15,663 nucleotides of DNA from Candidatus Saccharimonadota bacterium (GCA_017609205.1 JAFCEL010000002.1:1-15663), one strand, 5' to 3'. Positions 1 to 15,663 are shown, numbered from the stretch's first letter. Notes: generated by a model from the letters alone, not told the origin. Numbers and translations are program-made.

Positions 1-963
1 TCATCTGATTTCTGGGATGGTTTAAATTCTCCGAGCGATATTTATATTGGAAATTTAACAGATGATAATACATATGTAAGAGTTGATGGAGATAATATGA
101 CAGGTAATTTAACATTGGCAAATGACCCAAGTGATTTATTTCAAGCAGCAACAAAAGGTTATGTAGATATGGCTGTTGCTTCTCTTGGCTCAAGATATTA
201 CATGATTAATGATTCTTCTGGTATTGCTGATTATAAATTAACACAAACTACTGCATCTTCTGGAGCAGAGCAATCATTTAATAAATCAAATCTAGTAGAT
301 GGTGATTACATCATGGGTTGGATTTCACCAAATCCAAATGAACCAGGCACCTTGATTAAAGGAGTATATAGTTGGAATCTTTATGCTGAAAAAACAAGTG
401 GAACAAAGGAGTTAAGGTTATATTGGAAATTAATAGAGAGACTATCAAATGGAACAGAAATTGTAATAGGAACATCTGTTAATAGTAATGAGGTGTTAAA
501 TTCCAAAAATTCTTTTATAATCCCAATTATTTTATCAGATGACTATGCTTTGTCTAATGGTTCTTATGTTGTAGGTAAAATATATGCTTCTGTTGCTGGT
601 GGTGGCAGTGCTCCAAGTGTAGAATTATATTATGGAGGAGATTCTGATTCATATTGGGAAATCCCAACTAATTTGGAAGTATTATCAAGTCAATTTGTAA
701 ATTTAGATGGTGATACTATGACTGGAGCATTAAATGTTTCTAACATTAATACTAATAATTATGGTAACTTATCAATTGACGATGGAACCGTTTTTATTGA
801 TTCTTCAACTGATAGGATTGGAATAGGAACAACTACACCAAATGCTAAGTTGGATATTGTAGGAGAGGGGGGCGCTTTACTTAGTGTTACCCGATTAACG
901 ACTGGCAGCACATATTTTTATATTAATGGTTCTACAGGTCGGCAAGTCCGAGTCGGGCTTTAG
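1..963 (+). CDS. Tail-fibre-like fibrous surface protein (adhesin-like), 5'-truncated by the window edge; probably continues into 981..1412 across a frame break
   Basis: Frame 1 is open from nt 1 (no stop in the 32 codons before the ATG at 97), so the gene starts upstream of the window. It has two copies of the tail-fibre-type motif: 'VDGDNMTGNLTL...AATKGYVD' and 'LDGDTMTGALNV'. It also has the 'IGIGTTTPNAKLDIVG' motif typical of phage tail-fibre / endosialidase-chaperone-type fibrous proteins. Ends at TAG 961-963. Confidence 0.75.
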   Translation, partial: SSDFWDGLNSPSDIYIGNLTDDNTYVRVDGDNMTGNLTLANDPSDLFQAATKGYVDMAVASLGSRYYMINDSSGIADYKLTQTTASSGAEQSFNKSNLVDGDYIMGWISPNPNEPGTLIKGVYSWNLYAEKTSGTKELRLYWKLIERLSNGTEIVIGTSVNSNEVLNSKNSFIIPIILSDDYALSNGSYVVGKIYASVAGGGSAPSVELYYGGDSDSYWEIPTNLEVLSSQFVNLDGDTMTGALNVSNINTNNYGNLSIDDGTVFIDSSTDRIGIGTTTPNAKLDIVGEGGALLSVTRLTTGSTYFYINGSTGRQVRVGL

Positions 964-980
964 ATGTTGAAGGTGATTTT

Positions 981-1412
981 ATGGCTGTAAATTTATATCC
1001 GCAAGGTGGTATTAGATTCACTAACATAGCAGACCCTTCAATTTATAATGCTAATTCAGGGGCAGGAACAAATTTGAAAATTTATGGCGGAGGAGCTGAT
1101 GATTCATATTTATCACTTTATTCCGTAAGTTCTAGTCCAGCCAGCAAGTATGGCACGAGCGATTATATCAATTTCCATGTGGGCAATACAGCCGGCACCG
1201 CTCAAATTGAAGCCATGCGAATCGTTAATGGCGGCAATGTTGGTATAGGAACAACCACTCCTCTTGCTAAGTTGGATGTATCAAATTCAACACAGGGTTT
1301 AATCTTTAATCCGACTGGTGGTTCAGGAGATAGTCCAATTATAAATACAACTGGCTCTACAAATGTTACAATTACAAGCAGTGGTGGCTCTGTAATTATA
1401 CAGTTAGGTTAA
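981..1412 (+). CDS. Tail-fibre-like protein, C-terminal fragment or tip domain (frame is open upstream to 927)
   Basis: Carries a second 'VGIGTTTPLAKLDVSNS' motif, with DNA similarity between 817-855 and 1239-1277. The same frame upstream of the ATG reads 'SASPSRALDVEGDF', a third copy-like motif. Gly/Ser/Thr/Asn-rich composition. Locally higher GC than the rest of the window. Confidence 0.65.
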   Translation: MAVNLYPQGGIRFTNIADPSIYNANSGAGTNLKIYGGGADDSYLSLYSVSSSPASKYGTSDYINFHVGNTAGTAQIEAMRIVNGGNVGIGTTTPLAKLDVSNSTQGLIFNPTGGSGDSPIINTTGSTNVTITSSGGSVIIQLG

Positions 1413-1420
1413 TATATAAA
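1413..1420 (+). promoter_or_regulatory. TATA-box-like element (TATATAAA) upstream of the small membrane-protein gene
   Basis: 'tatataaa' lies immediately after the stop of the preceding ORF and 36-43 nt upstream of the ATG at 1456. A short leader containing a Shine-Dalgarno sequence follows. Confidence 0.3.
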
Positions 1421-1445
1421 TAATTTTATCAGGTAAATATTGAAA

Positions 1446-1451
1446 GGAGGT
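1446..1451 (+). promoter_or_regulatory. Shine-Dalgarno-like ribosome-binding site (GGAGGT)
   Basis: 'aaaGGAGGTaaaaATG': a perfect anti-16S core 4 nt upstream of the ATG at 1456. It is the only strong SD I see in the window. Confidence 0.55.
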
Positions 1452-1455
1452 AAAA

Positions 1456-1722
1456 ATGAGAAGAGATGGAAACAGGAACCAAATCTTGACGATTGTTTTG
1501 ATTGTTCTTTTAGCTCTTGCTGTTGGTTATATTGCTTTTGAGAAGATTTCTTTATGGAATCGGGTAAATCAGTTAGGAAACTTTCAGCAAGGAGCTCAGT
1601 ATGGATATCAGCAGGCAATTGTTGAGATAGCGCAGAAAGCAGAAGCATGTCAGCAAGTCCCTTTAGTAATAGGGAATAAGACCGTTAATGTTTTTGCTAT
1701 TAAATGTTTACAACAAAAATAA
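1456..1722 (+). CDS. Small single-pass membrane protein (88 aa), function unknown
   Basis: Strong SD. N-terminal basic stretch 'MRRDGNRN' followed by the hydrophobic helix 'ILTIVLIVLLALAVGYIAF'. Q-rich ectodomain with two Cys (possible disulfide). Stop lies 7 nt before the next start. Confidence 0.65.
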   Translation: MRRDGNRNQILTIVLIVLLALAVGYIAFEKISLWNRVNQLGNFQQGAQYGYQQAIVEIAQKAEACQQVPLVIGNKTVNVFAIKCLQQK

Positions 1723-1729
1723 TCTTAAA

Positions 1730-3058
1730 ATGGAGAATAAAAAGAAGTTTCTTTTAGTTATTTCTTTAGTATTAATCTTTTATTCAATTTTGCTTGTTTC
1801 TCCGATTGGAAGTGAAAATTATAATACTTCTGTGGCAATATCTTCAGGAGGAGGTAACATAAGTTCAGATAATCAGTCTCAGATTATTGTTGTTGGGCTA
1901 ATAAGTGGAAATGCTTCTTCAGGGAATTATAGCACTCATTTAGGTTTTTTGCAGGGTTCGTCAGATTTACTCCCCCCACGAGTTACAATCGTTAATCCTT
2001 TAGAAGCGACTTATGGTGTGAACTCTGTAAGTATTCAAATAAATCTTAATGAAGCTGGTTATTGCGAATATAGCCTTGACGCAGGAGTTACTAACCATAC
2101 TCTAACTGCTGATGCATCTAATTTGGTTTTTACTGGAACTTTGTCAGGACTTTCAAATGGAAATTATATTCTTAATGCGTATTGTAATGATAGTAGTGGG
2201 AATAAGAATTATACAGAAAGTGTTTCATTTACAATTAGTGTAGCGTCATCAACACCTTCTACAACATCTTCTGGCGGAGGGGGTGGTGGAGGCGGGGGTG
2301 TTGCAGAGTCTTTAGGGTTTTCTGTTAATCCTGAATCATATTCTAAAACAATTGTCTTGAATAGAACAGATTATGGGGGGATATTTATTACTAATGAGGA
2401 AAGTGTAGAGCGTGCTTATGATATTAACATAGAAGTTCTTGAAGGTATTTTGATTTTTGACAAAACTTCAGTTACTATTCCTCCTGGAAAAACAAAAAAC
2501 GTTGGGTTTAGAATTTATGCTCCTAGCAATCCTGGAATTTATACAGGAAAGATAATTGTAACTGCAGGATCTAAAAAAGCAGAGGTTCTTGTTACAATTA
2601 ATGTTAGAACTGAAAAGAGTTTGTATGATGTTCTTTTATCAATTCCCAAATCAATGAGGACTCTGCTTATTGGAAGGACGCTGAAGGCACAGGTGGATTT
2701 ATTGCAAATGGGTCTTAAGGAGAAAATGGATGTTGTTATAAAATATTTTATTAAAGGTTTCGATGGCAAGATTTATCTCTCTGAATCTGAAACAATAATG
2801 GTTTATGAGAAAAAATCTTTTGAAAGGGAGTTTCATACCCAGGATATTGCACCTGGAGATTATATTCTTGGAGTAGAGGTTATTTATCCTAGTGGTGTTG
2901 CAGTTGCGAGTTCTCAATTTAAGATAGTAGAAAAGTTGGGGGTTTTTAGATGCAATTTTTTTCTTATAATTTTATCTATAAGCCTGATAGCTCTTTTATT
3001 ATTTTTCTGGTTAATAATCAAAAGATATAAAAAAATAAGATTGCATAGACATAAATAA
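1730..3058 (+). CDS. Membrane-anchored surface protein with Ig/beta-sandwich-like domains, Gly9 linker and C-terminal TM anchor (paralog of 3062..4261)
   Basis: I prefer the ATG at 1730 ('MENKKKFLLVISLVLIFYSILLVS', signal-peptide-like) over 1688, which overlaps the upstream ORF. There is a 'SSGGGGGGGGGV' linker. The C-terminal hydrophobic helix 'FFLIILSISLIALLLFFWLII' is followed by the basic 'KRYKKIRLHRHK'. The two C-terminal domains align with the next gene. Confidence 0.8.
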   Translation: MENKKKFLLVISLVLIFYSILLVSPIGSENYNTSVAISSGGGNISSDNQSQIIVVGLISGNASSGNYSTHLGFLQGSSDLLPPRVTIVNPLEATYGVNSVSIQINLNEAGYCEYSLDAGVTNHTLTADASNLVFTGTLSGLSNGNYILNAYCNDSSGNKNYTESVSFTISVASSTPSTTSSGGGGGGGGGVAESLGFSVNPESYSKTIVLNRTDYGGIFITNEESVERAYDINIEVLEGILIFDKTSVTIPPGKTKNVGFRIYAPSNPGIYTGKIIVTAGSKKAEVLVTINVRTEKSLYDVLLSIPKSMRTLLIGRTLKAQVDLLQMGLKEKMDVVIKYFIKGFDGKIYLSESETIMVYEKKSFEREFHTQDIAPGDYILGVEVIYPSGVAVASSQFKIVEKLGVFRCNFFLIILSISLIALLLFFWLIIKRYKKIRLHRHK

Positions 3059-3061
3059 AAG

Positions 3062-4261
3062 ATGGTGTTAAAAAGGAGATTCTGGATAATAGGGCTTCTA
3101 ATTGCAGTAGCAATAGCAGTATTTTGTTTTTTTATAAATTCCGGACTTATAGGAAGGCAAGATTCTTATGAAAATGGTTTTGAAGTCAAACAGTTATTGT
3201 TAAGAGAAAATATCCTAGTTGGAGGAGGGGGTAGCAGTATAATTACTATAAAAAATTTAGAAAAAGATAGTCAGACTTTTAAGATAGGATTGTTTAATTT
3301 AGAGGGTATTGCTTCAGTTGAAGAGAGTCAATTCGTAGTTGGTTCGGGAGAGGAAAAAAAAGTTGCTATTTTGTTTAAGGATATTAAAAATAAAATTGAT
3401 GTTTATGTGGGAAGTATTGTTATTGAAGGGAATAAAGCCGTTAAGAAAATACCTGTTGTGGTTGGAGTAGAAAAGGAGAGCCCTTCTTTCACGATTATCC
3501 AAGAACCAATGCCAGCTTATGGTGAGGTTTATCCTGGTGGGAAATTAGGAATGGAAATAAAGATATTTAATTTAAAAGATTATGAAGAACACAAAGTTAA
3601 AATAAACTATTTCTTAAAAGATTTTAATGGAAATGTTCTAATGCCTGATGAAGAAAATAGGGTTGTGGGAGAGAGAACGTCTATTACAAAAATAATCAAT
3701 CTTCCTGAGGATATTGGGTATGGAAAGTATGTTTTTGTCACTCTTATAGATAATGAGAATATAGGGAGTTATATTTTTGATATAACTAAAAAAGATAAAA
3801 AGGTCTTCGACACTACAGAGTATCTTGTTTTAATTGTTTTAGTTTTTGTTATAGGGGTTTTTTTGATAATTTTCTATTTCTTTAGAGAAAGGGATAAATT
3901 CTTAATTGAGTTAAACAAACAACAGAATAGAGAAGTCAGAGAAAATCTTTCTGTTCTTAGGAAGTATAAAAAAGAAATTAATAAGATTAGGGATATAGAA
4001 GAGAAAAAACAAAAATTAAGGGCTCTTGAAAAAAATAGAAAAGAAATTCTTGCAAAAATAAAAAGAAAGCAGAAAATTCAGAAGAATGAATTATCTAAAT
4101 TAATAAGGGAGAATAAATTAAAGGAGGCTAAGAGAAAACTTGATTTATGGAAAAAAGAAGGATACAATTTTTCAGAGATTCATAGAGGGTTAAAAGGTTT
4201 ATCTAAGACAGATATACTGAATAAGATGAGACAATGGAAAAGACAAGGGTATAAGTTTTAA
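3062..4261 (+). CDS. Bitopic surface protein: N-terminal signal anchor, two beta-sandwich-like ectodomains, TM helix, 125-aa basic coiled-coil cytoplasmic tail
   Basis: Start is 3 nt after the upstream stop. N-terminal helix 'FWIIGLLIAVAIAVFCFFI'. The ectodomain is paralogous to the previous gene: 'KVKINYFLKDFNGNVLMPDEE..PEDIGYGKYVFV' versus 'DVVIKYFIKGFDGKIYLSESE..QDIAPGDYILGV'. TM helix 'YLVLIVLVFVIGVFLIIFYFF'. The K/R/E-rich tail (3884-4258) ends with the duplicated 'WKKEGYNF' / 'WKRQGYKF'. Confidence 0.8.
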   Translation: MVLKRRFWIIGLLIAVAIAVFCFFINSGLIGRQDSYENGFEVKQLLLRENILVGGGGSSIITIKNLEKDSQTFKIGLFNLEGIASVEESQFVVGSGEEKKVAILFKDIKNKIDVYVGSIVIEGNKAVKKIPVVVGVEKESPSFTIIQEPMPAYGEVYPGGKLGMEIKIFNLKDYEEHKVKINYFLKDFNGNVLMPDEENRVVGERTSITKIINLPEDIGYGKYVFVTLIDNENIGSYIFDITKKDKKVFDTTEYLVLIVLVFVIGVFLIIFYFFRERDKFLIELNKQQNREVRENLSVLRKYKKEINKIRDIEEKKQKLRALEKNRKEILAKIKRKQKIQKNELSKLIRENKLKEAKRKLDLWKKEGYNFSEIHRGLKGLSKTDILNKMRQWKRQGYKF

Positions 4262-4266
4262 TAATC

Positions 4267-4276
4267 TTTATAAAAA
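4267..4276 (+). promoter_or_regulatory. TATA-box-like element (TTTATAAAAA) upstream of the coiled-coil gene
   Basis: Centred about 24 nt upstream of the ATG at 4295 with no SD. This is consistent with an archaeal leaderless or short-leader promoter. Confidence 0.35.
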
Positions 4277-4294
4277 CAGTTGACATTAATTAAA

Positions 4295-5743
4295 ATGGTA
4301 AGGAAGAAACTAGAAGAAGGGGTGAGTAAGAAGGATTTTGCAAAGATTGAGTCAAAGATTCAAAGATTAAAACAGCTCGAGGATGAGTTGAATCTTCTTA
4401 ATCCTCAGGGATTTCCAGTTGAGGTTGCTTCTATACGTTCTAAGATAAAGAATGTTGCTAAAGTATCTGAAGTTGAAAGAGAGATGCGTGCTTTAAAGAG
4501 AAAAATAAATCTTCGACGAAAGAAAGAAGAAAAAGATGCAGGTAAGTTCTCTGATGTTAAAGAGAAATTAGATGATTTAGGGGAAGATGTTGAGAGCATA
4601 AAGAGTTCTCAGAAGAGAACTATCATTATAAGAAAAAAATTACAGGATTTGGAGAAAGATATTGAGGATGTGAAAGAATCTCAGGAAAAGGATCATCTTA
4701 TTAGAAAAAAACTAGAAGATATAGAGAATAATATTAGAGAGTTAGAAGAGTCTAGTTCAGAGATAAGTGATGTAAAGAGCGATCTATCTCGGATTAGGAG
4801 TGTTTTGTTGGACTTAAAAGAATCTCAAGAAAAAAAAGAAAAAGAGAAGAAGGCAAAGAGGTTGAAGATTGATAGGGGAGTTAGTGCAGTTGTCGAGGCA
4901 GATTTTAATGAATTTTTAACAGATATTGAATTGTCTCTTTCTGATAGATTGAAAAAGAGAGAAGAGGAGATTAATAATTTCTTGAAAAAGGATTTGATAA
5001 AGAGGAATAAAGAGTTCAAACAAAAACAAATTGATTTAGTTAAACAGTATGAGAGAGAGAAGAAGCGATTGGAGAAGAGGCTTAATAAACAATATGCAGA
5101 AGAAGTTCAGAAAAGATTGCATAAAGAGGTTAATGAGAGGTTTGGCAGTCTTTTGAATAAAAGTGTTGAAACAGAAAAAAGGAAATTAGAAGCAAAATAC
5201 AGAAAAGAATTAGCTTTACATTTAAAGGAGGAGCTTGAGAAAAGAAAAGAGTTGTTAAGACAGCGTATGCGAAGGGAGTTTGAAAATAAATTGAAAAAGC
5301 TTGAGAAAGAAAGAATATTAGAAAGAGAGGAGATTGAAGCAAGAGAAAGGAAGAAATTAGAGGAATTGAAAAAATTAGAGAAAGAAGAGCTTGAAAAGAA
5401 GAAGGAAGAGGTTGAGCTAGAAGAGAAGAAGAAATTAGAAGAATTGAAAAAAGCAAAACAGGCGCTTGAGAAGAAAAAGAGAGAACTTGAAGCAAAAGAG
5501 AAGAAGAAATTAGAAGAATTGAAAAAAGCAAAACAAGAGCTTGAAATTCAGAGAGAAAAAATAAAAGAAGGAATTAAAGAAGATTTAGTTAAACAGTTTA
5601 ATCAAATTCTCGAGAGGGAAGTTGCAAGGAAGGTTAATAAGATTAAAGTGAATATGAGAAAAGAGTTTAAGGAGAAATATGATAATAAACTAAAAAAGCA
5701 TGAAGCAGAATTGCATAAAAGATTGAAGCAACTTTTAAGTTAA
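4295..5743 (+). CDS. Long K/E-rich coiled-coil protein (about 482 aa), soluble, with internal tandem repeats
   Basis: Continuous ORF with extreme Lys/Glu/Arg/Leu heptad-like composition and no hydrophobic segment. I prefer the ATG at 4295 ('MVRKKLEEG') over the TTG at 4280. Repeated 'ESQEK..IRKKLxDxE' units and 25/26-aa 'KKLEELKKAKQxLE' repeats. Confidence 0.8.
   Translation: MVRKKLEEGVSKKDFAKIESKIQRLKQLEDELNLLNPQGFPVEVASIRSKIKNVAKVSEVEREMRALKRKINLRRKKEEKDAGKFSDVKEKLDDLGEDVESIKSSQKRTIIIRKKLQDLEKDIEDVKESQEKDHLIRKKLEDIENNIRELEESSSEISDVKSDLSRIRSVLLDLKESQEKKEKEKKAKRLKIDRGVSAVVEADFNEFLTDIELSLSDRLKKREEEINNFLKKDLIKRNKEFKQKQIDLVKQYEREKKRLEKRLNKQYAEEVQKRLHKEVNERFGSLLNKSVETEKRKLEAKYRKELALHLKEELEKRKELLRQRMRREFENKLKKLEKERILEREEIEARERKKLEELKKLEKEELEKKKEEVELEEKKKLEELKKAKQALEKKKRELEAKEKKKLEELKKAKQELEIQREKIKEGIKEDLVKQFNQILEREVARKVNKIKVNMRKEFKEKYDNKLKKHEAELHKRLKQLLS
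5343..5570 (+). repeat. Intragenic tandem repeat (units of 78/75/75 nt) including two identical 40-mers
   Basis: 5421-5460 and 5496-5535 are the identical 40-mer 'aagagaagaagaaattagaagaattgaaaaaagcaaaaca', 75 nt apart. A diverged copy ('gaaattagaggaattgaaaaaa') lies 78 nt upstream. The units encode the 'EKKKLEELKKAKQ' repeats. Confidence 0.85.
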
Positions 5744-5858: not shown

Positions 5859-7745
5859 ATGTCTGTAAAACAATCTTATAACGCAGAATCAATTAGGGTA
5901 CTTGAAGGTCTGGAAGGTGTAAGAAAGAGACCTGCAATGTATATTGGATCAACAGGAAGAGAAGGTTTGCATCATATGGTTTATGAAGTTGTTGATAACT
6001 CTGTCGACGAGGCTCTGGCAGGTTTTTGCAAGAAGATAATTGTTAAAATTAATGAGGATGGTTCGGTTAGTGTTGAAGATGATGGGCGTGGAATTCCTGT
6101 TGATATTCATGCTCAGTTGAAAATCCCTGCTGTTCAGGTTGCTTTAACAAAACTTCATGCAGGAGGAAAATTTGATAAAAAATCTTACCAGATTTCAGGA
6201 GGTTTGCATGGTGTCGGAGTCTCTTGCGTTAATGCTTTGTCAAAAAAGTTAATCGTTGAAATTAGGAAAGATGGGAAGATTTATTCTCAAGAATATTCAA
6301 GGGGAAAAGTGAAGAGTAAGCTAAAAGTTATTGGGAAGTATAATGGTGGTTCAAGTGGGACAAAAATAACTTTCTGGCCTGATGGGGATATTTTCTCTAC
6401 GACAGTTTTTGATGCGAAACACTTAGAAACCCGGTTTAGAGAAATCGCTTTTCTTAATGCGGGGTTAAGGATAATCCTTATTGACGAGATAAAGAAACAA
6501 ACAAGTGAATTTTATTACTCTGGAGGATTAATTGAATTTGTAAAATGGATAAATAAATCCAAGGATGTTTTGCATAAGCCTATTTATTTTAAAAGAGAAA
6601 CAAATGGAACGATTGTAGAAATTGCTTTGCAGTATAATACAGGTTATCGAGAGAATATTTTTGGTTTTGTCAATACAATTAATACTGTCGAGGGTGGAAC
6701 GCATATTTCAGGTTTTAAAAGTGCTTTGACGAGAGTGATAAATGATTATGCTAAAAAGAAATGTAATCTAAAAAATGGGTCTCTCAGTGGAGATGATGCT
6801 CGTGAAGGATTAACAGCTATTGTTAGTATTAAACTTGCAGAGCCTCAATTCGAGGGACAAACAAAGACAAAGCTTGGAAATTCAGATATAAAAGGTTTTG
6901 TCGATTCTATTGTTACTTCTGTTTTAGCTGAATTCTTCGAGGAGAATCCGTCTGTTGCTAAAAAAATTGTTACTAAGGCCATGGATTCTGCAAAGGCACG
7001 ACTTGCTGCTAAAAAAGCAAAGGATTTGGTAAGACGGAAAAATGCTTTTTCAGTTGGAGGGTTACCTGGAAAATTGCATGATTGCTCAAGCAAAAAATCT
7101 GATAATACTGAGTTGTATATTGTTGAGGGGGAGAGTGCTGGGGGTTCTGCAAAAAATGCACGGGATAAGAACACTCAAGCTATTTTGCCTTTGAAAGGTA
7201 AGATACTTAATGTTGAGAAATCCAATCCTGCGAGAGCGCTTTCAAGCGAGGAAATTACAAATATGATTACTGCAATTGGAACTGGTGTTGGTGACCAGTT
7301 TGATATTAAAAAACTGAGATATGGCAAAGTAATTATAATGACTGATGCTGATGTTGATGGAGAGCATATAAAAACGCTTCTTTTAACATTCTTTTTTAGG
7401 TTTATGCCTGATTTAATCAAGGAAGGAAAAGTTTATGCTGCGATGCCTCCATTGTATAGAATTAGAAATAGAAAGGATTATTATGTTTATTCTGACGAAG
7501 AGTTAAAGAAAGCAGTAGGGAAACTTGGTGCTGGAAATGTTACGAGGTTTAAGGGTTTGGGAGAGATGAGTCTTCAGCAATTGTGGGAAACTACAATGAA
7601 TCCAAAGACAAGGAGAATTAAGAGAATTTTTATTGAGGATGCTCTTGAAGCTGATAGGGTTTTTTCAATGTTAATGGGCGATGACGTTCAAGCTAGGAAG
7701 GAATTTATACAAGAGAATGCTAAACAGGCGGAATTAGATGTTTAA
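5859..7745 (+). CDS. gyrB: DNA gyrase subunit B
   Basis: Full set of GHKL ATPase and Toprim motifs: 'HHMVYEVVDNSVDEA', 'EDDGRGIP', 'GLHGVG', 'QTKTKLGN', 'EGESAGGSA', 'PLKGKILNVEK', 'IMTDADVDGEHI'. At 628 aa it is the short form without the large enterobacterial insert. Confidence 0.97.
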   Translation: MSVKQSYNAESIRVLEGLEGVRKRPAMYIGSTGREGLHHMVYEVVDNSVDEALAGFCKKIIVKINEDGSVSVEDDGRGIPVDIHAQLKIPAVQVALTKLHAGGKFDKKSYQISGGLHGVGVSCVNALSKKLIVEIRKDGKIYSQEYSRGKVKSKLKVIGKYNGGSSGTKITFWPDGDIFSTTVFDAKHLETRFREIAFLNAGLRIILIDEIKKQTSEFYYSGGLIEFVKWINKSKDVLHKPIYFKRETNGTIVEIALQYNTGYRENIFGFVNTINTVEGGTHISGFKSALTRVINDYAKKKCNLKNGSLSGDDAREGLTAIVSIKLAEPQFEGQTKTKLGNSDIKGFVDSIVTSVLAEFFEENPSVAKKIVTKAMDSAKARLAAKKAKDLVRRKNAFSVGGLPGKLHDCSSKKSDNTELYIVEGESAGGSAKNARDKNTQAILPLKGKILNVEKSNPARALSSEEITNMITAIGTGVGDQFDIKKLRYGKVIIMTDADVDGEHIKTLLLTFFFRFMPDLIKEGKVYAAMPPLYRIRNRKDYYVYSDEELKKAVGKLGAGNVTRFKGLGEMSLQQLWETTMNPKTRRIKRIFIEDALEADRVFSMLMGDDVQARKEFIQENAKQAELDV

Positions 7746-8037
7746 GATGGCAAAGAAGTCAAGAGTTCAAACACCTGCGTGGATACTTGAAGGATATGAC
7801 TCTAGAGAGGAATATGAAAAAGCAAAAGGTAAGATAAGCAATAAGAAATCAGGAAAAACCTTTAAAATCAGAAGATGTCCTGATTGTAACAGCGACGAAG
7901 TTAGAGTCGTAGTCGGAGAAGAATCTAAAGGGCTTTGGGAATGCAGTAAATGTAATTGGAGAGGAAAGAATATTAAAGAAGAGGAATTAAATGAAGAAGA
8001 ATTCCTTAGGTATTTGGATAAAAAAGAAGGAAATTAA
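7738..8037 (+). CDS. Small zinc-ribbon protein (96-99 aa) embedded between gyrB and gyrA
   Basis: The ORF fills the whole gyrB-gyrA gap. The ATG at 7738 overlaps the gyrB stop by 8 nt; the alternative ATG at 7747 is 1 nt after it. Its stop lies 5 nt before the gyrA start. The 'CPDC..(18)..CSKC' four-Cys ribbon is at 7876-7953, flanked by charged regions. Confidence 0.7.
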
Positions 8038-12140: not shown

Positions 12141-12863
12141 TTATTCTTCTTCAATGTCTTTTGTTAAAAAACTCCACCAAGGGTTTTTTATCTTGATTAT
12201 TTCCCCTGTTTCAGGGTCCATTTGCATTCTTACCCTTTCTCTTATAGGAATTAATCCGAATAATCTTGCTTTTTTCCTTATTTGTATTTTATAATTTCCA
12301 TCTTCGTCTAATTCTATTGTTTGATTCTCTAATCTTGCTTTTATTCTTTGTCTTATTCTTTCTTTAACTTCATCTGGCATTATTTCTATTGCTTTTGTTT
12401 TATTATTTTTAAAGACGCCATATATTTTTCCTTCTGCTCTGTATAATTCTACTTTTGTTGTCATATTTTCTCCTTTAACTTGAATAACTGTATTTCCTGA
12501 TTTGCCTGCTCTAATTATCATCTCCCTTCCATCTTGTGTTTGGCATTTTGTTACAGAACCTGTGCATGTGCATCCATTAGGGCAATTACTTGGATCAGCA
12601 TTTGCCTGCAATCTGTTTTGTATTCTTCTGATAACTCTTGCTTTGTACTCTGATAACTCCCTTGATCTTGTTTGGGCATGAGCTTGTATTTGAGAGTTTT
12701 CTCCTGAATTTTGCGTTTGTACTGAATTTTGTATTGCAGAATTATTTGAATTATTATTTTTACCTTCGTTTGAATTAAGTGTTACAGAGCCTGTAATTCC
12801 TGCTGTAACAAAGCCAACTAAAAGGAATACTAGAATGATTATTGGTATTACTCTTTTTTGCAT
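12141..12863 (-). CDS. Secreted or membrane-anchored protein with an N/Q/S-rich linker, a 'CPNGCTCTGSVTKC' Cys motif and a C-terminal 'NPWWSFL' motif
   Basis: N-terminal 'MQKRVIPIIILVFLLVGFVTAG' is a signal or anchor sequence, followed by a low-complexity N/Q/S linker. Then comes a structured domain with four clustered Cys and 'ARLFGLIPIRERVRMQMDPETGEIIKIKNPWW'. I believe I have seen similar archaeal hypothetical proteins but cannot name a family. Confidence 0.75.
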   Translation of the reverse strand: MQKRVIPIIILVFLLVGFVTAGITGSVTLNSNEGKNNNSNNSAIQNSVQTQNSGENSQIQAHAQTRSRELSEYKARVIRRIQNRLQANADPSNCPNGCTCTGSVTKCQTQDGREMIIRAGKSGNTVIQVKGENMTTKVELYRAEGKIYGVFKNNKTKAIEIMPDEVKERIRQRIKARLENQTIELDEDGNYKIQIRKKARLFGLIPIRERVRMQMDPETGEIIKIKNPWWSFLTKDIEEE

Positions 12864-12904: not shown

Positions 12905-14092
12905 TTACTCTTGAATTTTTCCGAACCCTATTAATCGCCAATGACCGTTTATATTTCGTGCAATTCCAACATTATCTCCTTTAAGTGCTATTATAGGAAT
13001 ATTGAGATTTAACTCTAATTCGGATTCTTTTATTCTCTCAATTATTCCGACGGTGATTGTTGTATCTACTGAGAGCATAAGCATTTCTTTTGTTTTTATT
13101 GGTTCAACTAGTTTTTTTTCTTCTGTTCCGAGGACTTCTTTAAATAGTTCGTATTTTATCTTCAGATGGTTTGTAATTTCTGGAAGGTTTCCTTTTGTTG
13201 AGACAACACAACCAGTTAATGAATCTGTTTTTGTGAGAAAGGGGTCGAGAGAAGTTTCTATTGAGATGCTTGCTCCAGGGGTTACTTCTTCGAAGGATTC
13301 TTTTCCTTTATGAAGTGATAGAATTTTTGTTGTTAATGTTTGATATATTTGTTGATTTTGTTTTTTTATGCTTAGTCCGGGTTTTATTTCTATTTCATCG
13401 TTGATTTTTAATTTTCCTTTTTTCAAGATCCCTCCTAAAACCCCTCCTTTTAGATTTTTTATTTCAGTTCCTGGTTTATTTATATCAAAACTCCTTGCGA
13501 TTAGGAAAATTGGTTTTGTGTTTATTTCTCTTTTTGGAATTTCTATTTTTATTAGTTCTTCTAGTATTTTGTCGATGTTTATCTTCTGTTGCGCTGATAT
13601 TGGGATTATTGGAGAGTTCTCAGCAAAGGTTCCTTTAACAAATTTCTTTATTTCGTGATAATTTTTTAATGCTTGCTCTTTTGTTACTAAGTCTATTTTG
13701 TTTTGGACAATTATTATATTCTTTATTTTTTTTGCCTGTAGTGCCATAAGGTGTTCTTTTGTTTGTGGCTTGATACCTTCGTTTGCTGCTATAACGAGTA
13801 TTGCAGCGTCGATAATTGCTGCCCCTGAAAGCATAGTCGCCATAAGCATTTCATGACCTGGGGCGTCAATAAAGCTAATATAACGAAGAGGCTTTCCTTT
13901 TTTTGTATTTAGTCTTCCATTATCATCGAAGATTGTTATTTCTGAGTAACCGAGTTTAATTGTAATACCTCTTTTGAGCTCTTCTGAGTGGGTATCTGTA
14001 AATTTTCCAGTTAGGCGATTGAGCAAGGTTGTTTTCCCATGGTCAATATGTCCTACGACCCCGACATTTATTTCAGGCAGGTTATTTTTCAT
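12905..14092 (-). CDS. eif2g: Translation initiation factor aIF2 gamma subunit
   Basis: GTPase motifs 'GHIDHGKTT' (G1), 'DAPGHE' (G3), 'QNKIDL' (G4), 'ISAQ' (G5). 'HSEELKRGITIKLGY' plus domains II/III ('IARSFDINKPG', 'LKGGVLGG', 'HWRLIGFG') match archaeal aIF2-gamma along the whole 395 aa. Confidence 0.95.
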   Translation of the reverse strand: MKNNLPEINVGVVGHIDHGKTTLLNRLTGKFTDTHSEELKRGITIKLGYSEITIFDDNGRLNTKKGKPLRYISFIDAPGHEMLMATMLSGAAIIDAAILVIAANEGIKPQTKEHLMALQAKKIKNIIIVQNKIDLVTKEQALKNYHEIKKFVKGTFAENSPIIPISAQQKINIDKILEELIKIEIPKREINTKPIFLIARSFDINKPGTEIKNLKGGVLGGILKKGKLKINDEIEIKPGLSIKKQNQQIYQTLTTKILSLHKGKESFEEVTPGASISIETSLDPFLTKTDSLTGCVVSTKGNLPEITNHLKIKYELFKEVLGTEEKKLVEPIKTKEMLMLSVDTTITVGIIERIKESELELNLNIPIIALKGDNVGIARNINGHWRLIGFGKIQE

Positions 14093-14113
14093 ATAGAATT
14101 TAGAGATAATTCA

Positions 14114-14120
14114 GTTAAAA
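14114..14120 (-). promoter_or_regulatory. Candidate TATA-like element (minus strand TTTTAAC) upstream of aIF2-gamma
   Basis: Lies 22-28 nt upstream of the ATG at 14092, within the 80-nt S6e/aIF2-gamma spacer. Confidence 0.25.
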
Positions 14121-14172
14121 GGTTTTTGGATATTCTATTTATGTATAATGATATTTTTTGTTTAAGAATATT

Positions 14173-14718
14173 TTAGTTTTTAGTCTCGTTGGTCTTTTCT
14201 TTTTCAGGTTCTTCTTTTTTTGGAGTTTCTTGCTTTTGTTCAGTAATTTGTGCTTTAGTTTGATTTTTATCAGAGGAAGCATTAGTTTGAGAATTTTCCT
14301 CTTGGCTTTTGTTTTGTTCAGGAAAAATCTCAGAGAGCTTTTTTGCACCTTCTTTTAAAACTTTAAGATTAATCTGAACAATTGCGTCAGAGATTGTGTT
14401 TCCTCTAACTGTTTTTCTAAGTCTTAGTCCTTTTGGTTTTTTACACAATGGTTTTTTCTTGCCTTCACGTCTTGGGCGTTTTCTCATTGCTTTACCATAG
14501 GTTAAAAGGACTCTTTTTAGGCCAACCCCTTCTATATCTTCCATTGCTGTAAATCCTGCCTTGTCACTTGCCCCTCTAATTTCAAATTCATAGCCTTCTA
14601 AATCAGGGGAAATCTCTTTGCCGTCAATTCTATCTCTGAGTTTTTTCCCTACTAAATTAGCTTCTGCTTCAATTTTGAATGTTTTTCCTTCTTTTGTTCC
14701 AATATTTATCTTGAACAT
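14173..14718 (-). CDS. rps6e: 30S ribosomal protein S6e with a low-complexity C-terminal extension
   Basis: 'MFKINIGTKEGKTFKIE', 'IRGASDKAGFTAM' and 'RKTVRGNTISDAIVQINLKV' match the S6e family. The S6e-aIF2gamma adjacency is a common archaeal arrangement. About 50 extra Q/E/K/T/N-rich residues lie at the C-terminus. Confidence 0.9.
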   Translation of the reverse strand: MFKINIGTKEGKTFKIEAEANLVGKKLRDRIDGKEISPDLEGYEFEIRGASDKAGFTAMEDIEGVGLKRVLLTYGKAMRKRPRREGKKKPLCKKPKGLRLRKTVRGNTISDAIVQINLKVLKEGAKKLSEIFPEQNKSQEENSQTNASSDKNQTKAQITEQKQETPKKEEPEKEKTNETKN

Positions 14719-14739
14719 GATAATTATTTGAAGAATGAG

Positions 14740-14746
14740 TTTAAAA
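14740..14746 (-). promoter_or_regulatory. TATA-box-like element (minus strand TTTTAAA) upstream of rps6e
   Basis: The minus strand reads 'ctcTTTTAAActcattcttcaaataattatcATG'. The box is 22-28 nt upstream of the ATG at 14718, with no SD. Confidence 0.35.
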
Positions 14747-14787
14747 GAGTTTTGATTTAGGTTTCTATTGTTTTGTATTAAGGTATA

Positions 14788-15432
14788 TTATTTTTTATTT
14801 ATTTTCCAAATTTTAATCGCCTCTATAACCTGCGAGATTGAAACACCCAAACCTTTTCTCCATAAACTAATGTAATTAAATAATTCATTTGTTTCTATGC
14901 TTCCGCTAGAATCAGTATCAGCTTCATGAATTGGCTGTTGAGGACAACTTCCACAATCCAGTTTGCAGTTTGAACAATTTTCTCCACTACTACAGATATT
15001 ATCTCCACAAATAGGATTTGTTGTTCCAGAAGATATATTAATTGGATAACCAACTTCATTGTAATTATTGTCTGCATCAAAAACGAATAGATAGGCTATT
15101 CCGCTGTCATTGAATTTTCCAAGATTCACTGTTACAGAAATAGAATTGTCTGACCATGCAAATGGAATCTGGGGTTCTATGATTGTTGCATTTGAATAAT
15201 TCTGGCTGTTTGCGAGCATTACTCTTGCGAATGTATCGTCTATATAAATATCGTCAAAATATCTGAAAGCATTGTTATTCTGATAGCCTGGATTAAAGTA
15301 GGCTAAGATATACCCGTCCCCATTCTCCCATTGGTTATCAGTTCCTCCTGACAAGCCATTGGCGCAAGTAATTGATGTTGCATTATTTGAAGTAGCAATA
15401 CATGTGCTGCTGTCAGATGTGTTTTTTATCAA
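14788..15432 (-). CDS. Surface protein C-terminal portion: beta-rich domain, Cys-knot 'CGDNICSSGENCSNCKLDCGSC', dockerin/EF-hand-like tail. Probably the 3' part of a disrupted larger gene.
   Basis: The track ORF starts at a TTG; the frame is open to 15456 and is preceded by an in-frame TAG at 15457-15459. 'IPFAWSDNSISVTVNLGKFNDSGIAYLFVFDADNNYNEVGYPINI' is followed by the six-Cys motif and 'DTDSSGSIETNELFNYISLWRKG', a Ca-binding-loop-like segment. Confidence 0.7.
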   Translation of the reverse strand: MIKNTSDSSTCIATSNNATSITCANGLSGGTDNQWENGDGYILAYFNPGYQNNNAFRYFDDIYIDDTFARVMLANSQNYSNATIIEPQIPFAWSDNSISVTVNLGKFNDSGIAYLFVFDADNNYNEVGYPINISSGTTNPICGDNICSSGENCSNCKLDCGSCPQQPIHEADTDSSGSIETNELFNYISLWRKGLGVSISQVIEAIKIWKINKK

Positions 15433-15459
15433 TGCACCAACCCAATAATCAATTGCCTA

Positions 15460-15663
15460 ATTTGCAGTGTAATTTACTAAGGTAGTTGAGGAAGTTTCTC
15501 CTTCATGGGTTCCATGCACTCGGGTTCTGCACCTGCGGTCTCATCTTCACCATCATCCCACATCAAAGGCCTTGCAGGATCTTTTATTCCAAAATCAGTT
15601 CCAGAAATTGTTAAATTATCTTTATGTACAACAGCCCCTGTAACAGAATTTATAGAAGGTGTT
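15460..15663 (-). pseudogene. Upstream fragments of the same surface-protein gene (frame-shifted and nonsense-interrupted), running off the right edge
   Basis: One minus frame is open from the window edge to a TAG at 15477-15479 and reads 'TPSINSVTGAVVHKDNLTISGTDFGIKDPARPLMWDDGEDETAGAEPE...'. The frame of the downstream ORF reads 'VHGTHEGETSSTTLVNYTAN*AIDYWVGALIKNTS'. Together they look like one protein broken by one frameshift (about 15500-15540) and one TAG. Confidence 0.45.

What the first reader, a model, noticed from the sequence alone, without database searches (positions are those of the whole stretch)
1..5743. Co-directional cluster: tail-fibre-like adhesin, small TM protein, two paralogous bitopic beta-sandwich proteins and a giant K/E coiled-coil. 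Candidate trans-envelope attachment/scaffold module.
Six same-strand ORFs are packed with gaps of 17, 43, 7, 3 and 33 nt.

Seen directly:
- A fibrous tail-fibre-like protein with GDxMTGxL and IGIGTTTPxAKLD motifs.
- An 88-aa single-pass protein carrying the only strong SD in the window.
- Two paralogs with the layout signal anchor, two beta-sandwich-like domains, TM helix.
- The second paralog adds a 125-aa basic coiled-coil cytoplasmic tail (3884-4258).
- The next gene is a 480-aa soluble K/E coiled-coil protein of similar composition.

Inference: the architecture reads as extracellular fibre, membrane-spanning anchors, then a cytoplasmic coiled-coil scaffold. In an episymbiotic small-genome archaeon that would fit a host-attachment or cell-contact apparatus linked to an internal filament. 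I recognise no characterised system with this composition.
Basis: partly seen in the sequence, partly recalled or inferred. Interest (0 to 1): 0.75.

Follow-up and report, generated by a model that had tools for sequence, protein, structure and literature searches.

The report
Conserved surface-anchor gene triad in nanoarchaea
Three of the six flagged genes form an undescribed module kept together across tiny symbiotic (DPANN) archaea: a size-variable surface protein, its membrane-spanning paralog with an internal tail, and a long basic helical protein that may link the cell surface to the interior; the "tail-fibre" genes are fragments of one broken, unconserved gene.

Summary
All six ORFs, their spacing, TM segments, motifs and the P4/P5 paralogy are present as described. 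Two points need correcting.

- The two "fibre" ORFs (1-963, 981-1412) are halves of one gene. A 16-nt deletion relative to a 99.4 %-identical contig splits them, and upstream that contig's fibre gene carries further frameshifts.
- The fibre gene and the 88-aa TM gene have no counterpart in any of 36 related loci.

The real unit is P4 (1730-3058), P5 (3062-4261) and P6 (4295-5743).

- A P6-like gene follows P5 in 30/30 related Nanoarchaeota/Woesearchaeota/Pacearchaeota loci.
- A P4-like gene precedes P5 in 24/27 loci, often with a 4-nt overlap.
- gyrB follows in only 9/20.

P4 orthologs range from 442 to more than 4,300 aa (Ig-like/lectin repeats). All end in the same double beta-sandwich + TM module, which is anciently paralogous to the P5 ectodomain. 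P5 is uniform (~400 aa), with a cytoplasmic basic helical tail ending in two W-x3-G-Y motifs. P6 is all-helical and strongly basic, with a confident N-terminal three-helix domain. No Pfam, NCBIfam, PDB or literature assignment exists for any of the three; the module family has about 3,580 50 %-identity clusters.

Best reading: an envelope-spanning anchor/adaptor/scaffold module for variable adhesins. The P5-P6 contact and the attachment role are inferred, not shown.

The parts
1..963 (+). Fibre-like gene, fragment A. Its 5' end lies outside the window, and it ends because of a frameshift. Not part of the conserved module.
   Evidence: Translation. PHROG tail-fibre and phrog_5906 hits. It is continuous with 981-1412 in L001. 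No homolog in 36 related loci.
939..940 (+). Site of a 16-nt deletion (TACGTCGGCATCGGTA in L001) that splits the fibre gene into two ORFs.
   Evidence: Window versus L001 alignment; sequences.
981..1412 (+). Fibre-like gene, fragment B (the C-terminal 143 aa of the 507-aa ORF of L001).
   Evidence: Weak PDB hits of the fused protein to the Bdellovibrio MAT fibres 8OND and 8OML, E=0.005 and 0.011.
1456..1722 (+). P3: an 88-aa single-pass membrane protein with a GGAGGT Shine-Dalgarno sequence at 1446-1451. Specific to this lineage or strain; not part of the conserved module.
   Evidence: The only family hit is DUF7190 at E=0.034. No homolog in related loci.
1730..3058 (+). P4: a short member of a surface-protein family of variable size. 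Layout: N-terminal signal/TM (residues 4-29), low-complexity region, Ig-like domain (residues ~76-170; nt 1955-2239), Gly-rich linker, double beta-sandwich module (residues 193-400; nt 2306-2929), TM (residues 402-433; nt 2933-3028), and a short basic 'KRYKK' tail.
   Evidence: Orthologs are 442 to >4,319 aa and share the same C-terminal module at 41-49 % identity. Laminin_G_3 and Big_13 domains occur in the giant orthologs.
3062..4261 (+). P5: the adaptor paralog. Layout: N-terminal TM/signal anchor (residues 2-32; nt 3065-3157), double beta-sandwich ectodomain (residues 37-246; nt 3170-3799), TM (residues 248-277; nt 3803-3892), and a cytoplasmic basic helical tail (residues 278-399; nt 3893-4258).
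   Evidence: The AF2 model gives pLDDT ~88-91 for the ectodomain. Foldseek finds generic tandem Ig/PapD/ASH-like folds. About 105 of the top 150 cluster representatives share this architecture.
4148..4252 (+). Two W-x3-G-Y motifs (WKKEGY at residues 363-368; WKRQGY at residues 392-397), 29 residues apart at the end of the P5 tail. W363, G367, W392 and G396 are invariant in 20 diverse members.
   Evidence: Alignments; motif spacing in cluster representatives.
4267..4276 (+). TTTATAAAAA, a TATA-box-like element 19-28 nt upstream of the P6 ATG. It may be P6's own promoter (low confidence).
   Evidence: Sequence. Similar A/T boxes lie 20-40 nt upstream of most P6 orthologs. Not tested against the AT-rich background.
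4295..5743 (+). P6: a 482-aa all-helical basic protein. Features: conserved N-terminal three-helix domain (residues 12-78; nt 4328-4528), heptad-periodic segment (residues 80-190; nt 4532-4864), conserved block 2 (residues 182-300; nt 4838-5194), variable K/E repeats, and a conserved C-terminal block (residues 454-478; nt 5654-5728).
   Evidence: Orthologs lie directly downstream of P5 in 30/30 loci. Alignments. Net charge is +31 to +106. AF2. Heptad test. No Pfam, PDB or Foldseek match.

Best explanation
Window 1730-5743 encodes a conserved three-gene envelope module of Nanoarchaeota-type DPANN archaea (Woesearchaeota/Pacearchaeota).

Shown:
- P4 is the local, unusually short member of a family of size-variable surface proteins. 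In relatives these carry Ig-like and lectin repeats and reach more than 4,000 aa. All end in the same membrane-proximal double beta-sandwich + TM helix + very short basic tail.
- P5 is an ancient paralog of that anchoring module. It has a constant size and adds a ~125-aa basic helical tail ending in two invariant W-x3-G-Y motifs.
- P6 is a basic, elongated, all-helical protein with no hydrophobic (signal or TM) segment, so presumably cytoplasmic. It has a small conserved N-terminal helical domain.
- The three genes stay adjacent and co-directional across deep divergence.
- Charge distribution puts the P5 tail in the cytoplasm.

Inferred mechanism:
- The P4 module and the P5 ectodomain pair side by side at the membrane as a heteromer of paralogous Ig tandems.
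- The P5 tail recruits P6 through its juxtamembrane segment and/or the W-x3-G-Y pair.
- P6 oligomerises into a submembrane scaffold, or binds an anionic partner such as DNA or lipid.
- The result fixes or clusters the variable adhesin at a defined site, plausibly for contact with a host cell.

The upstream fibre-like gene and P3 are neighbouring, non-conserved surface-protein genes. They are not components of the module.
For: Synteny:
- P6-like follows P5-like in 30/30 loci.
- P4-like precedes P5-like in 24/27 loci, with a 4-nt overlap in 11 of them.
- gyrB follows in only 9/20, so the triad persists where the surrounding synteny decays.
- No other recurrent neighbour was found.

Paralogy is old and maintained:
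- 54/54 modules have a nearest neighbour of their own class.
- Mean identity is 39.6 % within P4 modules, 31.1 % within P5 modules and 22.7 % between classes.
- Same-locus P4-P5 identity is 23.4 %.

Family size and architecture:
- The exhaustive profile search found 3,580 cluster representatives at E<=1e-3 and 535 at E<=1e-30.
- They fall into two architectures: ~400 aa with a ~125-aa tail, or the module at the C-terminus of proteins up to 4,472 aa with an 8-15 aa tail.

Structure:
- The P5 ectodomain is two beta-sandwiches (pLDDT ~90), and the TM helix continues into long helices.
- P6 has an N-terminal domain at pLDDT 93-96, followed by helices 98-189, 194-362 and 374-481.

Topology: charge pattern in 93 P5-like proteins.

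Tail conservation: W363, G367, W392 and G396 are invariant, and the juxtamembrane segment is conserved (consensus 'Y..K.RD.LL.ELKKQQ..E').

P6 is a genuine conserved protein: three conserved blocks appear in 29 orthologs.

The outer parts of P4 relatives carry adhesin-type domains (Laminin_G_3, Big_13).
Against: - No physical P4-P5 or P5-P6 interaction was tested.
- No P5-P6 fusion protein was found among 160 family members.
- Toxin-antitoxin genes sit between P4 and P5 in two loci, and P4 is absent next to P5 in 3/27 loci, so strict co-translation is not required.
- P6 may have its own promoter.
- Coiled-coil periodicity is significant only for P6 residues 80-190.
- The sampled loci belong to one phylum-level group (GyrB is 74-81 % identical in the nearer set), so some synteny could be inherited rather than selected.
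- The host-attachment role rests only on the DPANN lifestyle and on adhesin-type domains.
- P4 in this window is short (a single Ig-like domain).
Confidence: 0.45

Rival explanations
1. General envelope or S-layer-type architecture. P4 and P5 would be structural wall or canopy proteins (anchor plus stalk, as in SlaA/SlaB) with no role in host contact. P6 would be a separately acting cytoplasmic protein that merely shares an inherited gene order.
For: - The tandem Ig-like, membrane-anchored design is typical of archaeal envelope proteins, and the fold matches are generic.
- P5 is highly uniform in size, as expected for a structural part.
- P6 probably has its own TATA-like element.
- Toxin-antitoxin insertions between P4 and P5 are tolerated.
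Against: - P4 orthologs vary tenfold in length (442 to >4,300 aa) and carry lectin/Ig repeats. That does not fit a lattice-forming S-layer subunit.
- The helical region of P5 lies after the TM helix, on the positively charged (cytoplasmic) side. The extracellular coiled coil of SlaB lies before it.
- P5-P6 adjacency is 30/30, while adjacency to gyrB drops to 9/20.
Confidence: 0.2
2. Membrane-nucleoid tether. P6 would be a nucleic-acid-binding, histone-H1-like basic protein, and the P5 tail would dock the chromosome (or incoming or outgoing DNA) at the envelope. That would explain the frequent placement next to gyrB-gyrA.
For: - All P6 orthologs carry a large net positive charge (+31 to +106).
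- The L002 and L012 versions replace the K/E helices with a K/R-rich stretch and a small C-terminal domain.
- The P5 tail averages a net charge of +24.7.
- gyrB lies directly downstream in 9/20 loci, including this window.
Against: - No DNA-binding domain was detected. The best is RPA_C (a winged helix) at E=0.099 in one ortholog.
- There are no PDB or Foldseek matches.
- gyrB is absent downstream in 11/20 loci.
- Basic K/E-rich helices could equally bind acidic lipids or self-associate.
Confidence: 0.15
3. The six-gene apparatus: fibre, small TM protein, two anchors and a coiled coil form a single machine.
For: - All six ORFs are co-directional and tightly spaced.
- In L001 the upstream neighbourhood holds further surface-protein genes: an FG-GAP repeat protein and a second fibre-motif ORF.
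Against: - P1, P2 and P3 have no homolog in any of 36 related loci, whereas P4-P6 do.
- The fibre coding region is broken by a 16-nt deletion in the window and by at least 3 frameshifts or stops in L001.
- In L009, ribosomal-protein and Kae1-type genes lie directly upstream of the P4 ortholog.
Confidence: 0.05

Closest known systems
WxL-interacting protein (WxLIP; DUF916-DUF3324-TM) of Firmicutes WxL/Csc surface-protein clusters (PMC10599100)
   Same: - Signal sequence, two tandem Ig-like domains acting as one unit, and a C-terminal TM helix.
- Encoded next to small and large surface proteins that it is proposed to hold on the cell surface.
- WxLIP structures are among the top Foldseek hits of the P5 model (9i25_C E=2.4e-10; 9i1y).
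   Different: - No sequence match to DUF916 or DUF3324, and TM-scores are low (0.21-0.36).
- There is no WxL partner and no peptidoglycan in archaea.
- The abstract of PMC10599100 lists no cytoplasmic domain after the WxLIP TM helix and no P6-like gene in the cluster, whereas here the partner (P4) carries the same module as a paralog and is itself membrane-anchored.
Mycoplasma pneumoniae attachment (terminal) organelle: TM adhesins P1/P30/P40-P90 linked to an internal core of coiled-coil proteins such as HMW2 (own knowledge, not tested here)
   Same: - A small-genome, host-attached, wall-less cell.
- Transmembrane surface adhesins coupled to a cytoplasmic scaffold of long helical, charged proteins.
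- This is the closest functional analogy to the proposed mechanism.
   Different: - Bacterial, not archaeal.
- No sequence or fold relationship was detected by Pfam or PDB searches.
- It has many more components.
- The interaction between P5 and P6 is only inferred here.
Sulfolobales S-layer pair SlaA/SlaB (own knowledge)
   Same: - Adjacent genes for a large outer protein and a smaller membrane-anchored partner.
- The partner is built of beta-sandwich domains plus a long helical segment and a C-terminal TM helix.
   Different: - The SlaB coiled coil is extracellular and precedes the TM helix. The P5 helical tail follows the TM helix and carries the inside-positive charge.
- P4 orthologs vary tenfold in size, unlike a lattice subunit.
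- No third cytoplasmic gene.
Bdellovibrio MAT (mosaic adhesive trimer) fibres and phage tail fibres (PMC10769870). Relevant to the P1/P2 gene only.
   Same: - Repeated GDxMTGxL and (I/V)GIGTxxPxxxLDV units.
- The fused 507-aa protein hits tail-fibre PHROGs (phrog_9942 5e-13; also phrog_5906, function unknown, 1.7e-15) and the beta-helix regions of Bd2133 (8OND, E=0.0047) and Bd1334 (8OML, E=0.011).
- Both are phage-like fibres borne by a cell that lives on other cells.
   Different: - Only motif-level similarity: 7-21 % query coverage against phage genomes.
- No S74 chaperone domain.
- No phage context, and no relatives in IMG/VR.
- The gene is fragmented in both assemblies.

Membership tests
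WxLIP (DUF916 + DUF3324 + TM) | Sequence match to Pfam DUF916 and DUF3324 | tested here: not met
   Pfam scan of P4 and P5 at E<=1 lists neither family. Remote family members likewise.
WxLIP (DUF916 + DUF3324 + TM) | Two tandem Ig-like domains followed by a C-terminal TM helix | tested here: met
   AF2 model of P5; hydropathy; Foldseek hits 9i25_C and 9i1y at E~1e-10 but TM-score 0.21-0.36.
WxLIP (DUF916 + DUF3324 + TM) | Gene cluster with WxL-domain proteins | tested here: not met
   No WxL domain in any window protein. The recurrent neighbours are only P4-like, P6-like and gyrase.
Phage tail fibre / MAT fibre (P1+P2 only) | Repeated fibre (beta-helix) sequence units shared with tail fibres | tested here: met
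   Matches are at motif level only. phrog_9942 (tail fibre) 5e-13 and phrog_5906 (function unknown) 1.7e-15 for the fused ORF. 8OND E=0.0047. tblastn against phages covers only 7-21 % of the query.
Phage tail fibre / MAT fibre (P1+P2 only) | C-terminal S74 intramolecular chaperone or a recognised tip domain | tested here: not met
   No Pfam family at E<=0.01 in the 507-aa ORF.
Phage tail fibre / MAT fibre (P1+P2 only) | Homotrimeric fibre | not testable with these tools
Phage tail fibre / MAT fibre (P1+P2 only) | Intact open reading frame | tested here: not met
   A 16-nt deletion in the window and at least 3 frame breaks in L001 2608-5443. Assembly error was not excluded.
SlaA/SlaB-type S-layer pair | Anchor protein with an extracellular coiled coil before the C-terminal TM helix | tested here: not met
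   The P5 helices follow the TM helix, and the charge pattern puts them in the cytoplasm.
SlaA/SlaB-type S-layer pair | Outer subunit of conserved size that forms a lattice | tested here: not met
   P4 orthologs range from 442 to >4,300 aa. Lattice formation itself is not testable here.
PapD-like / ASH (MSP) Ig-fold superfamily | Beta-sandwich fold similar to PapD-like chaperones, CEP192 SPD-2 and hydin/CFAP65 ASH domains | tested here: inconclusive
   Foldseek probability is 1.0 with E down to 6e-12, but TM-scores are 0.2-0.5. Sub-threshold Pfam hits to Ig_CFAP65_4th, FixG_C and fn3_5; one remote member passes Cep192_D3 at 28.6 bits against a cut-off of 27.
Canonical coiled-coil / intermediate-filament-like proteins (P6) | Heptad (a/d) hydrophobic periodicity over long helices | tested here: inconclusive
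   Residues 80-190 give z=6.8, the whole protein z=4.6, and residues 190-482 are not significant. AF2 predicts helices of up to 169 residues. Oligomeric state is untested.
DPANN-specific 'dark matter' clusters of Makarova et al. 2019 (cls.004340/NEQ484, 'alpha-helical protein in housekeeping context') | Sequence similarity of P6 to NEQ484 | not tested
   The family is only named in PMC6393860.

The most novel reading that the evidence does not exclude
The P4-P5-P6 triad is a new kind of archaeal trans-envelope coupling device. A hypervariable, often giant host-contact adhesin is held by a paralogous adaptor. The adaptor's conserved cytoplasmic W-x3-G-Y tail docks a long basic helical protein that forms a submembrane filament or binds the nucleoid. 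Events at the host-contact surface would thereby be linked physically to the interior of Woesearchaeota/Pacearchaeota-type DPANN cells, as a prokaryotic, non-homologous counterpart of adhesin-cytoskeleton linkages.
Probability: 0.3. Interest if true: 0.85.

Novelty: new variant of a known kind. Interest (0 to 1): 0.62.

Why it matters
How uncultured DPANN archaea of the Woesearchaeota/Pacearchaeota type attach to and exchange material with hosts is unknown, and their surface proteins are mostly unannotated.

This analysis gives three things:

- **A defined target.** The vague "cluster of odd ORFs" becomes a three-gene unit: about 3,580 sequence clusters for the shared module, and 30/30 P5-P6 linkage.
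- **Concrete parts to test.** These are a common membrane-proximal module on proteins of 0.4-4.5 kaa, a constant adaptor with an invariant cytoplasmic motif pair, and an orphan basic helical protein.
- **Enough natural sequence pairs for co-evolution analysis.**

If the inferred coupling is real, it would be the first envelope-to-cytoplasm adhesin linkage described in archaea. It would also give a handle for annotating the giant surface proteins of these genomes by their shared C-terminal anchor.

The analysis also shows that the eye-catching tail-fibre-like gene is a fragmented, non-conserved neighbour.

Tried and rejected
- **Exact look-up of the window's P5.** Nothing was found. The 99 % relative P0001 gave the source-like contig L001 instead.
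- **Word-index homolog searches.** They badly under-sampled the families: 9 hits for P5, 2 for P6, and only 67-122 aa fragments for the P6 N-domain. The exhaustive profile search was needed.
- **The search for related loci with diverse alignments.** Solved by using closer subsets.
- **Family and sequence-to-structure searches.** Pfam, NCBIfam, PHROGs and PDB-sequence searches of P3-P6 gave nothing above threshold.
- **Foldseek.** The P6 model gave nothing at E<1. The P5 model gave only generic Ig tandems.
- **Rosetta-stone test.** No P5-P6 fusion was found among long-tailed family members. A second tail subtype turned up instead.
- **Winged-helix idea for the L002/L012 P6 variants.** Not supported (RPA_C E=0.099).
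- **Viral origin.** No relatives of P5 or of the fibre protein in IMG/VR contigs. Against phage genomes the fibre protein gave only short motif matches; P5 was not searched there.
- **Search for a fourth conserved neighbour.** None beyond gyrB/gyrA.
- **Literature searches for a description of the triad.** Nothing found.
- **First heptad script.** It timed out and was rerun in vectorised form.

Full report
**1. What is in the window**

- Downstream lie gyrB (5859-7745), a 99-aa zinc-ribbon gene and gyrA.
- On the other strand lie a PD-(D/E)XK nuclease, aIF2-gamma and ribosomal protein S6e.
- This is therefore a chromosomal archaeal region.
- Related loci come from MAGs labelled Nanoarchaeota, Woesearchaeota, Pacearchaeota and Nanoarchaeia, so the "small-genome DPANN archaeon" guess is right.

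**2. The fibre gene**

The window is 99.4 % identical to a JGI contig (L001), apart from a few indels.

- The largest indel is a 16-nt deletion after window position 939.
- With those 16 nt, L001 reads straight through as one 507-aa ORF. The deleted stretch encodes a third copy of the '(I/V)GIGTxxPxxxLDV' unit.
- ORFs 1-963 and 981-1412 are therefore two halves of one gene.
- Upstream in L001, fibre-type coding sequence continues back to a 280-aa ORF with a signal/TM segment. It is interrupted by at least three more frame breaks and contains 45-94-nt near-perfect internal repeats.
- The gene could be a decaying pseudogene, a variable gene, or an assembly casualty of repeats. I could not distinguish these.

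Similarity to tail fibres is real but only at motif level:

- PHROG tail-fibre families score down to 5e-13 for the fused ORF.
- There are weak PDB hits to the beta-helix parts of the Bdellovibrio MAT fibres Bd2133 and Bd1334 (PMC10769870).
- Only 7-21 % of the query is covered against phage genomes.
- There are no relatives in IMG/VR.

**3. The paralogs**

- P4 and P5 align at 22 % identity over 222 aa, E=9e-9.
- Both have an N-terminal hydrophobic segment and a C-terminal TM helix.
- P4 also has an N-terminal Ig-like domain (Y_Y_Y at 25.4 bits, just under the cut-off) and a poly-Gly linker.
- An AF2 model of P5 gives two beta-sandwiches at pLDDT ~90. The TM helix runs on into long helices, followed by three short helices.
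- Foldseek finds only generic tandem Ig/PapD/ASH-type folds: RbmA, FimC, the CEP192 SPD-2 domain, hydin-type proteins and WxLIP.
- No Pfam, NCBIfam or PDB sequence family covers the module, either here or in remote members.

**4. Family size and architectures**

The word-index search found only 9 P5 homologs. An exhaustive profile search with the ectodomain alone (both TM segments and the tail removed) found 3,580 cluster representatives at E<=1e-3 and 535 at E<=1e-30. The top 150 fall into two architectures:

- About 105 are P5-like: ~390-425 aa, module at residues ~30-245, and a tail of ~120-130 aa with two W-x3-G-[YF] motifs 29 residues apart.
- About 41 are P4-like: the module sits at the extreme C-terminus of proteins up to 4,472 aa, followed by a TM helix and an 8-15 aa tail.

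In 20 diverse P5-like sequences, W363, G367, W392 and G396 are invariant and the juxtamembrane segment (consensus 'Y..K.RD.LL.ELKKQQ..E') is strongly conserved. A second tail subtype ends in 'EKEFMKKFYSxLGKK'.

**5. Neighbourhood conservation**

I gathered 10 loci from species-representative genomes and 27 from metagenomes, using a distant P5 subgroup as the query. I annotated all ORFs with HMMs built from the module, the tail and P6. After removing duplicates:

- A P6-like gene lies directly downstream of P5 in 30/30 loci with enough sequence. Gaps are mostly 9-140 nt.
- A P4-like gene lies directly upstream in 24/27 loci, 11 of them with a 4-nt overlap.
- gyrB follows within 5 kb in only 9/20.
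- All-against-all clustering found no other recurrent neighbour.
- P1, P2 and P3 have no homolog in any related locus.
- In L009, housekeeping genes directly precede the P4 ortholog.
- Toxin-antitoxin genes are inserted between P4 and P5 in two loci.

The conserved unit is therefore P4-P5-P6, with P5-P6 as the invariant core. The fibre gene and P3 are local additions.

**6. P4 is the variable element**

- Orthologs are 442 aa (here), 979 aa, 3,258 aa and more than 4,319 aa.
- The long ones carry Laminin_G_3 lectin domains and Big_13 repeats.
- All share the C-terminal module at 41-49 % identity to the window's P4.
- Module sequences separate cleanly into P4 and P5 classes: 54/54 nearest neighbours are of the same class, and same-locus P4-P5 identity is 23 %.
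- The duplication is therefore old, and both copies are kept side by side. That pattern is expected of non-redundant partners.

**7. P6**

- It is not a compositional artefact. Twenty-nine orthologs share an N-terminal block (window residues 12-78), a second block (182-300) and a C-terminal block (454-478), separated by variable K/E repeats.
- Every ortholog is strongly basic, with a net charge of +31 to +106.
- AF2 gives a confident three-helix N-terminal domain (pLDDT 93-96), then helices of 92, 169 and 108 residues.
- Heptad periodicity is clear only for residues 80-190.
- No Pfam, PDB-sequence or Foldseek match was found.
- The gene was not called in the JGI annotation of L001, and no near-identical protein is in the protein collection.

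**8. Topology**

In 93 P5-like proteins the mean net charges are as follows:

| Region | Net charge |
|---|---|
| N-terminal flank | +2.3 |
| 15 residues after TM2 | +1.9 |
| Whole tail | +24.7 |
| Ectodomain | -10.1 |

By the positive-inside rule the ectodomain is outside and the tail inside, whether or not the first hydrophobic segment is cleaved. This is an inference from charge, not the output of a dedicated predictor.

**9. Mechanism**

Shown:

- A conserved, co-directional triad.
- Anciently paralogous membrane-proximal modules on P4 and P5.
- A cytoplasmic, motif-bearing P5 tail.
- A conserved, elongated, basic P6.

Inferred:

- The P4 and P5 modules pair at the membrane.
- The P5 tail recruits P6.
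- P6 forms a submembrane scaffold or binds an anionic partner.
- The assembly positions a variable adhesin, plausibly for host contact.

Rivals:

- A purely structural envelope role with P6 unrelated. This is disfavoured by the P4 size range, by the helices lying on the cytoplasmic side, and by 30/30 P5-P6 linkage.
- A membrane-nucleoid tether. This is suggested by charge and by the gyrase neighbourhood, but no DNA-binding domain was found, and gyrB is absent downstream in 11/20 loci.
- The original six-gene machine. This is contradicted by the synteny data.

**10. Comparison with known systems**

- The nearest architectural analogue of P5 and the P4 module is WxLIP of Firmicutes: two Ig-like domains plus a TM helix that hold WxL surface proteins (PMC10599100). 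Its defining Pfam domains and WxL partners are absent here, and its published description lists no cytoplasmic tail.
- SlaA/SlaB resembles the large-plus-anchor pairing, but its coiled coil is outside the membrane.
- The closest functional analogy to the proposed coupling is the Mycoplasma attachment organelle (own knowledge). No homology was found.
- I found no description of this triad in the searchable literature.
- P6 might correspond to the DPANN-specific 'alpha-helical protein in housekeeping context' (NEQ484 cluster) listed as enigmatic in PMC6393860. I could not test this.

**11. Verdict**

- The triad is an undescribed, widely conserved DPANN module built from generic part types (Ig-fold surface proteins, TM anchors, a charged helical protein). 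I rate it a new variant of a known kind, not categorically new.
- Interest is moderate to high because it offers a concrete, testable candidate for the surface-to-interior link in uncultured episymbiotic archaea.

Noticed in passing
window 7738-8037 (+): A 99-aa zinc-ribbon gene is wedged between gyrB (8-nt overlap) and gyrA (5-nt gap). The same small gene sits between gyrB and gyrA in L002, L009, L010, L011 and L012 at 43-66 % identity. It may be a lineage-specific gyrase accessory protein.
   Followed up: partly
L001 2608-5443 (upstream of and overlapping window 1-1412): Fibre-type coding sequence continues across at least 3 frame breaks from a signal-bearing 280-aa ORF into the 507-aa ORF. 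It contains 45-94-nt repeats at 98 % identity (3307/3575; 3390/3937). It could be a pseudogene, cassette-type variation or a repeat mis-assembly.
   Followed up: partly
L012 752-860; L006 4698-4820: Giant P4-like proteins, and another large ORF downstream of P6, begin with a conserved cytoplasmic motif 'MVYK(R/K)YIKK(G/N)GK.YGPY.Y....NGKVV.EY(L/I)G' before their first TM segment. Several representatives of 1,969-4,472 aa have that first TM at residues ~42-80.
   Followed up: no
L010 1905-3051; L013 1637-2859: Toxin-antitoxin-like genes are inserted between the P4 and P5 orthologs. By sequence resemblance only (no domain scan was run on them), they look like a HicA/HicB-like pair and a HEPN / minimal-nucleotidyltransferase pair.
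   Followed up: no
window 3024-3035 and the equivalent positions upstream of P5 in many loci; window 4267-4276: The conserved P4 tail motif (K/R)RYKK is encoded as AGATATAAAAA, a TATA-box-like string 25-45 nt upstream of the P5 start in many loci. P6 orthologs usually have TTTAAAAA or TTTATAAAA 20-40 nt upstream of their ATG. This may be dual coding/promoter use or just AT-rich codon bias.
   Followed up: partly
window 12141-12863 (-): A 240-aa secreted or membrane protein with a weak PepSY hit (E=0.004), conserved in L002. It may belong to the DPANN-specific double-PepSY cluster cls.004634 highlighted in PMC6393860.
   Followed up: no
window 4295-5743 / L001 8326-9774: The P6 ORF is intact in L001 (one substitution), yet it was not called as a gene in that contig's annotation, and no near-identical protein exists in the protein collection. 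K/E-rich genes of this family may be systematically under-annotated.
   Followed up: partly
L009 12726-13685: A 319-aa ORF starts with a copy of the first 24 residues of GyrB and then diverges. It lies immediately upstream of the real gyrB (13672-15555). In L022, gyrB (775 aa) and gyrA (>1,286 aa) are unusually long.
   Followed up: no
window 14788-15432 (-): A Cys-rich 214-aa ORF with a dockerin/EF-hand-like 'DTDSSGSIETNELFNYI' segment near its C-terminus. It has weak similarity (E 1e-6 to 5e-5) to P4-like ORFs in L024 and L034.
   Followed up: no
Contig of P0009 (JGI 3300072015; no DNA held): A distant P5 relative has three TM segments and a 296-aa K/E-rich tail. It follows a 1,756-aa Laminin_G_3/beta-helix surface protein but has no P6-like gene downstream; SSB and RFC genes follow on the opposite strand. 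The longer tail may replace P6 (n=1).
   Followed up: no
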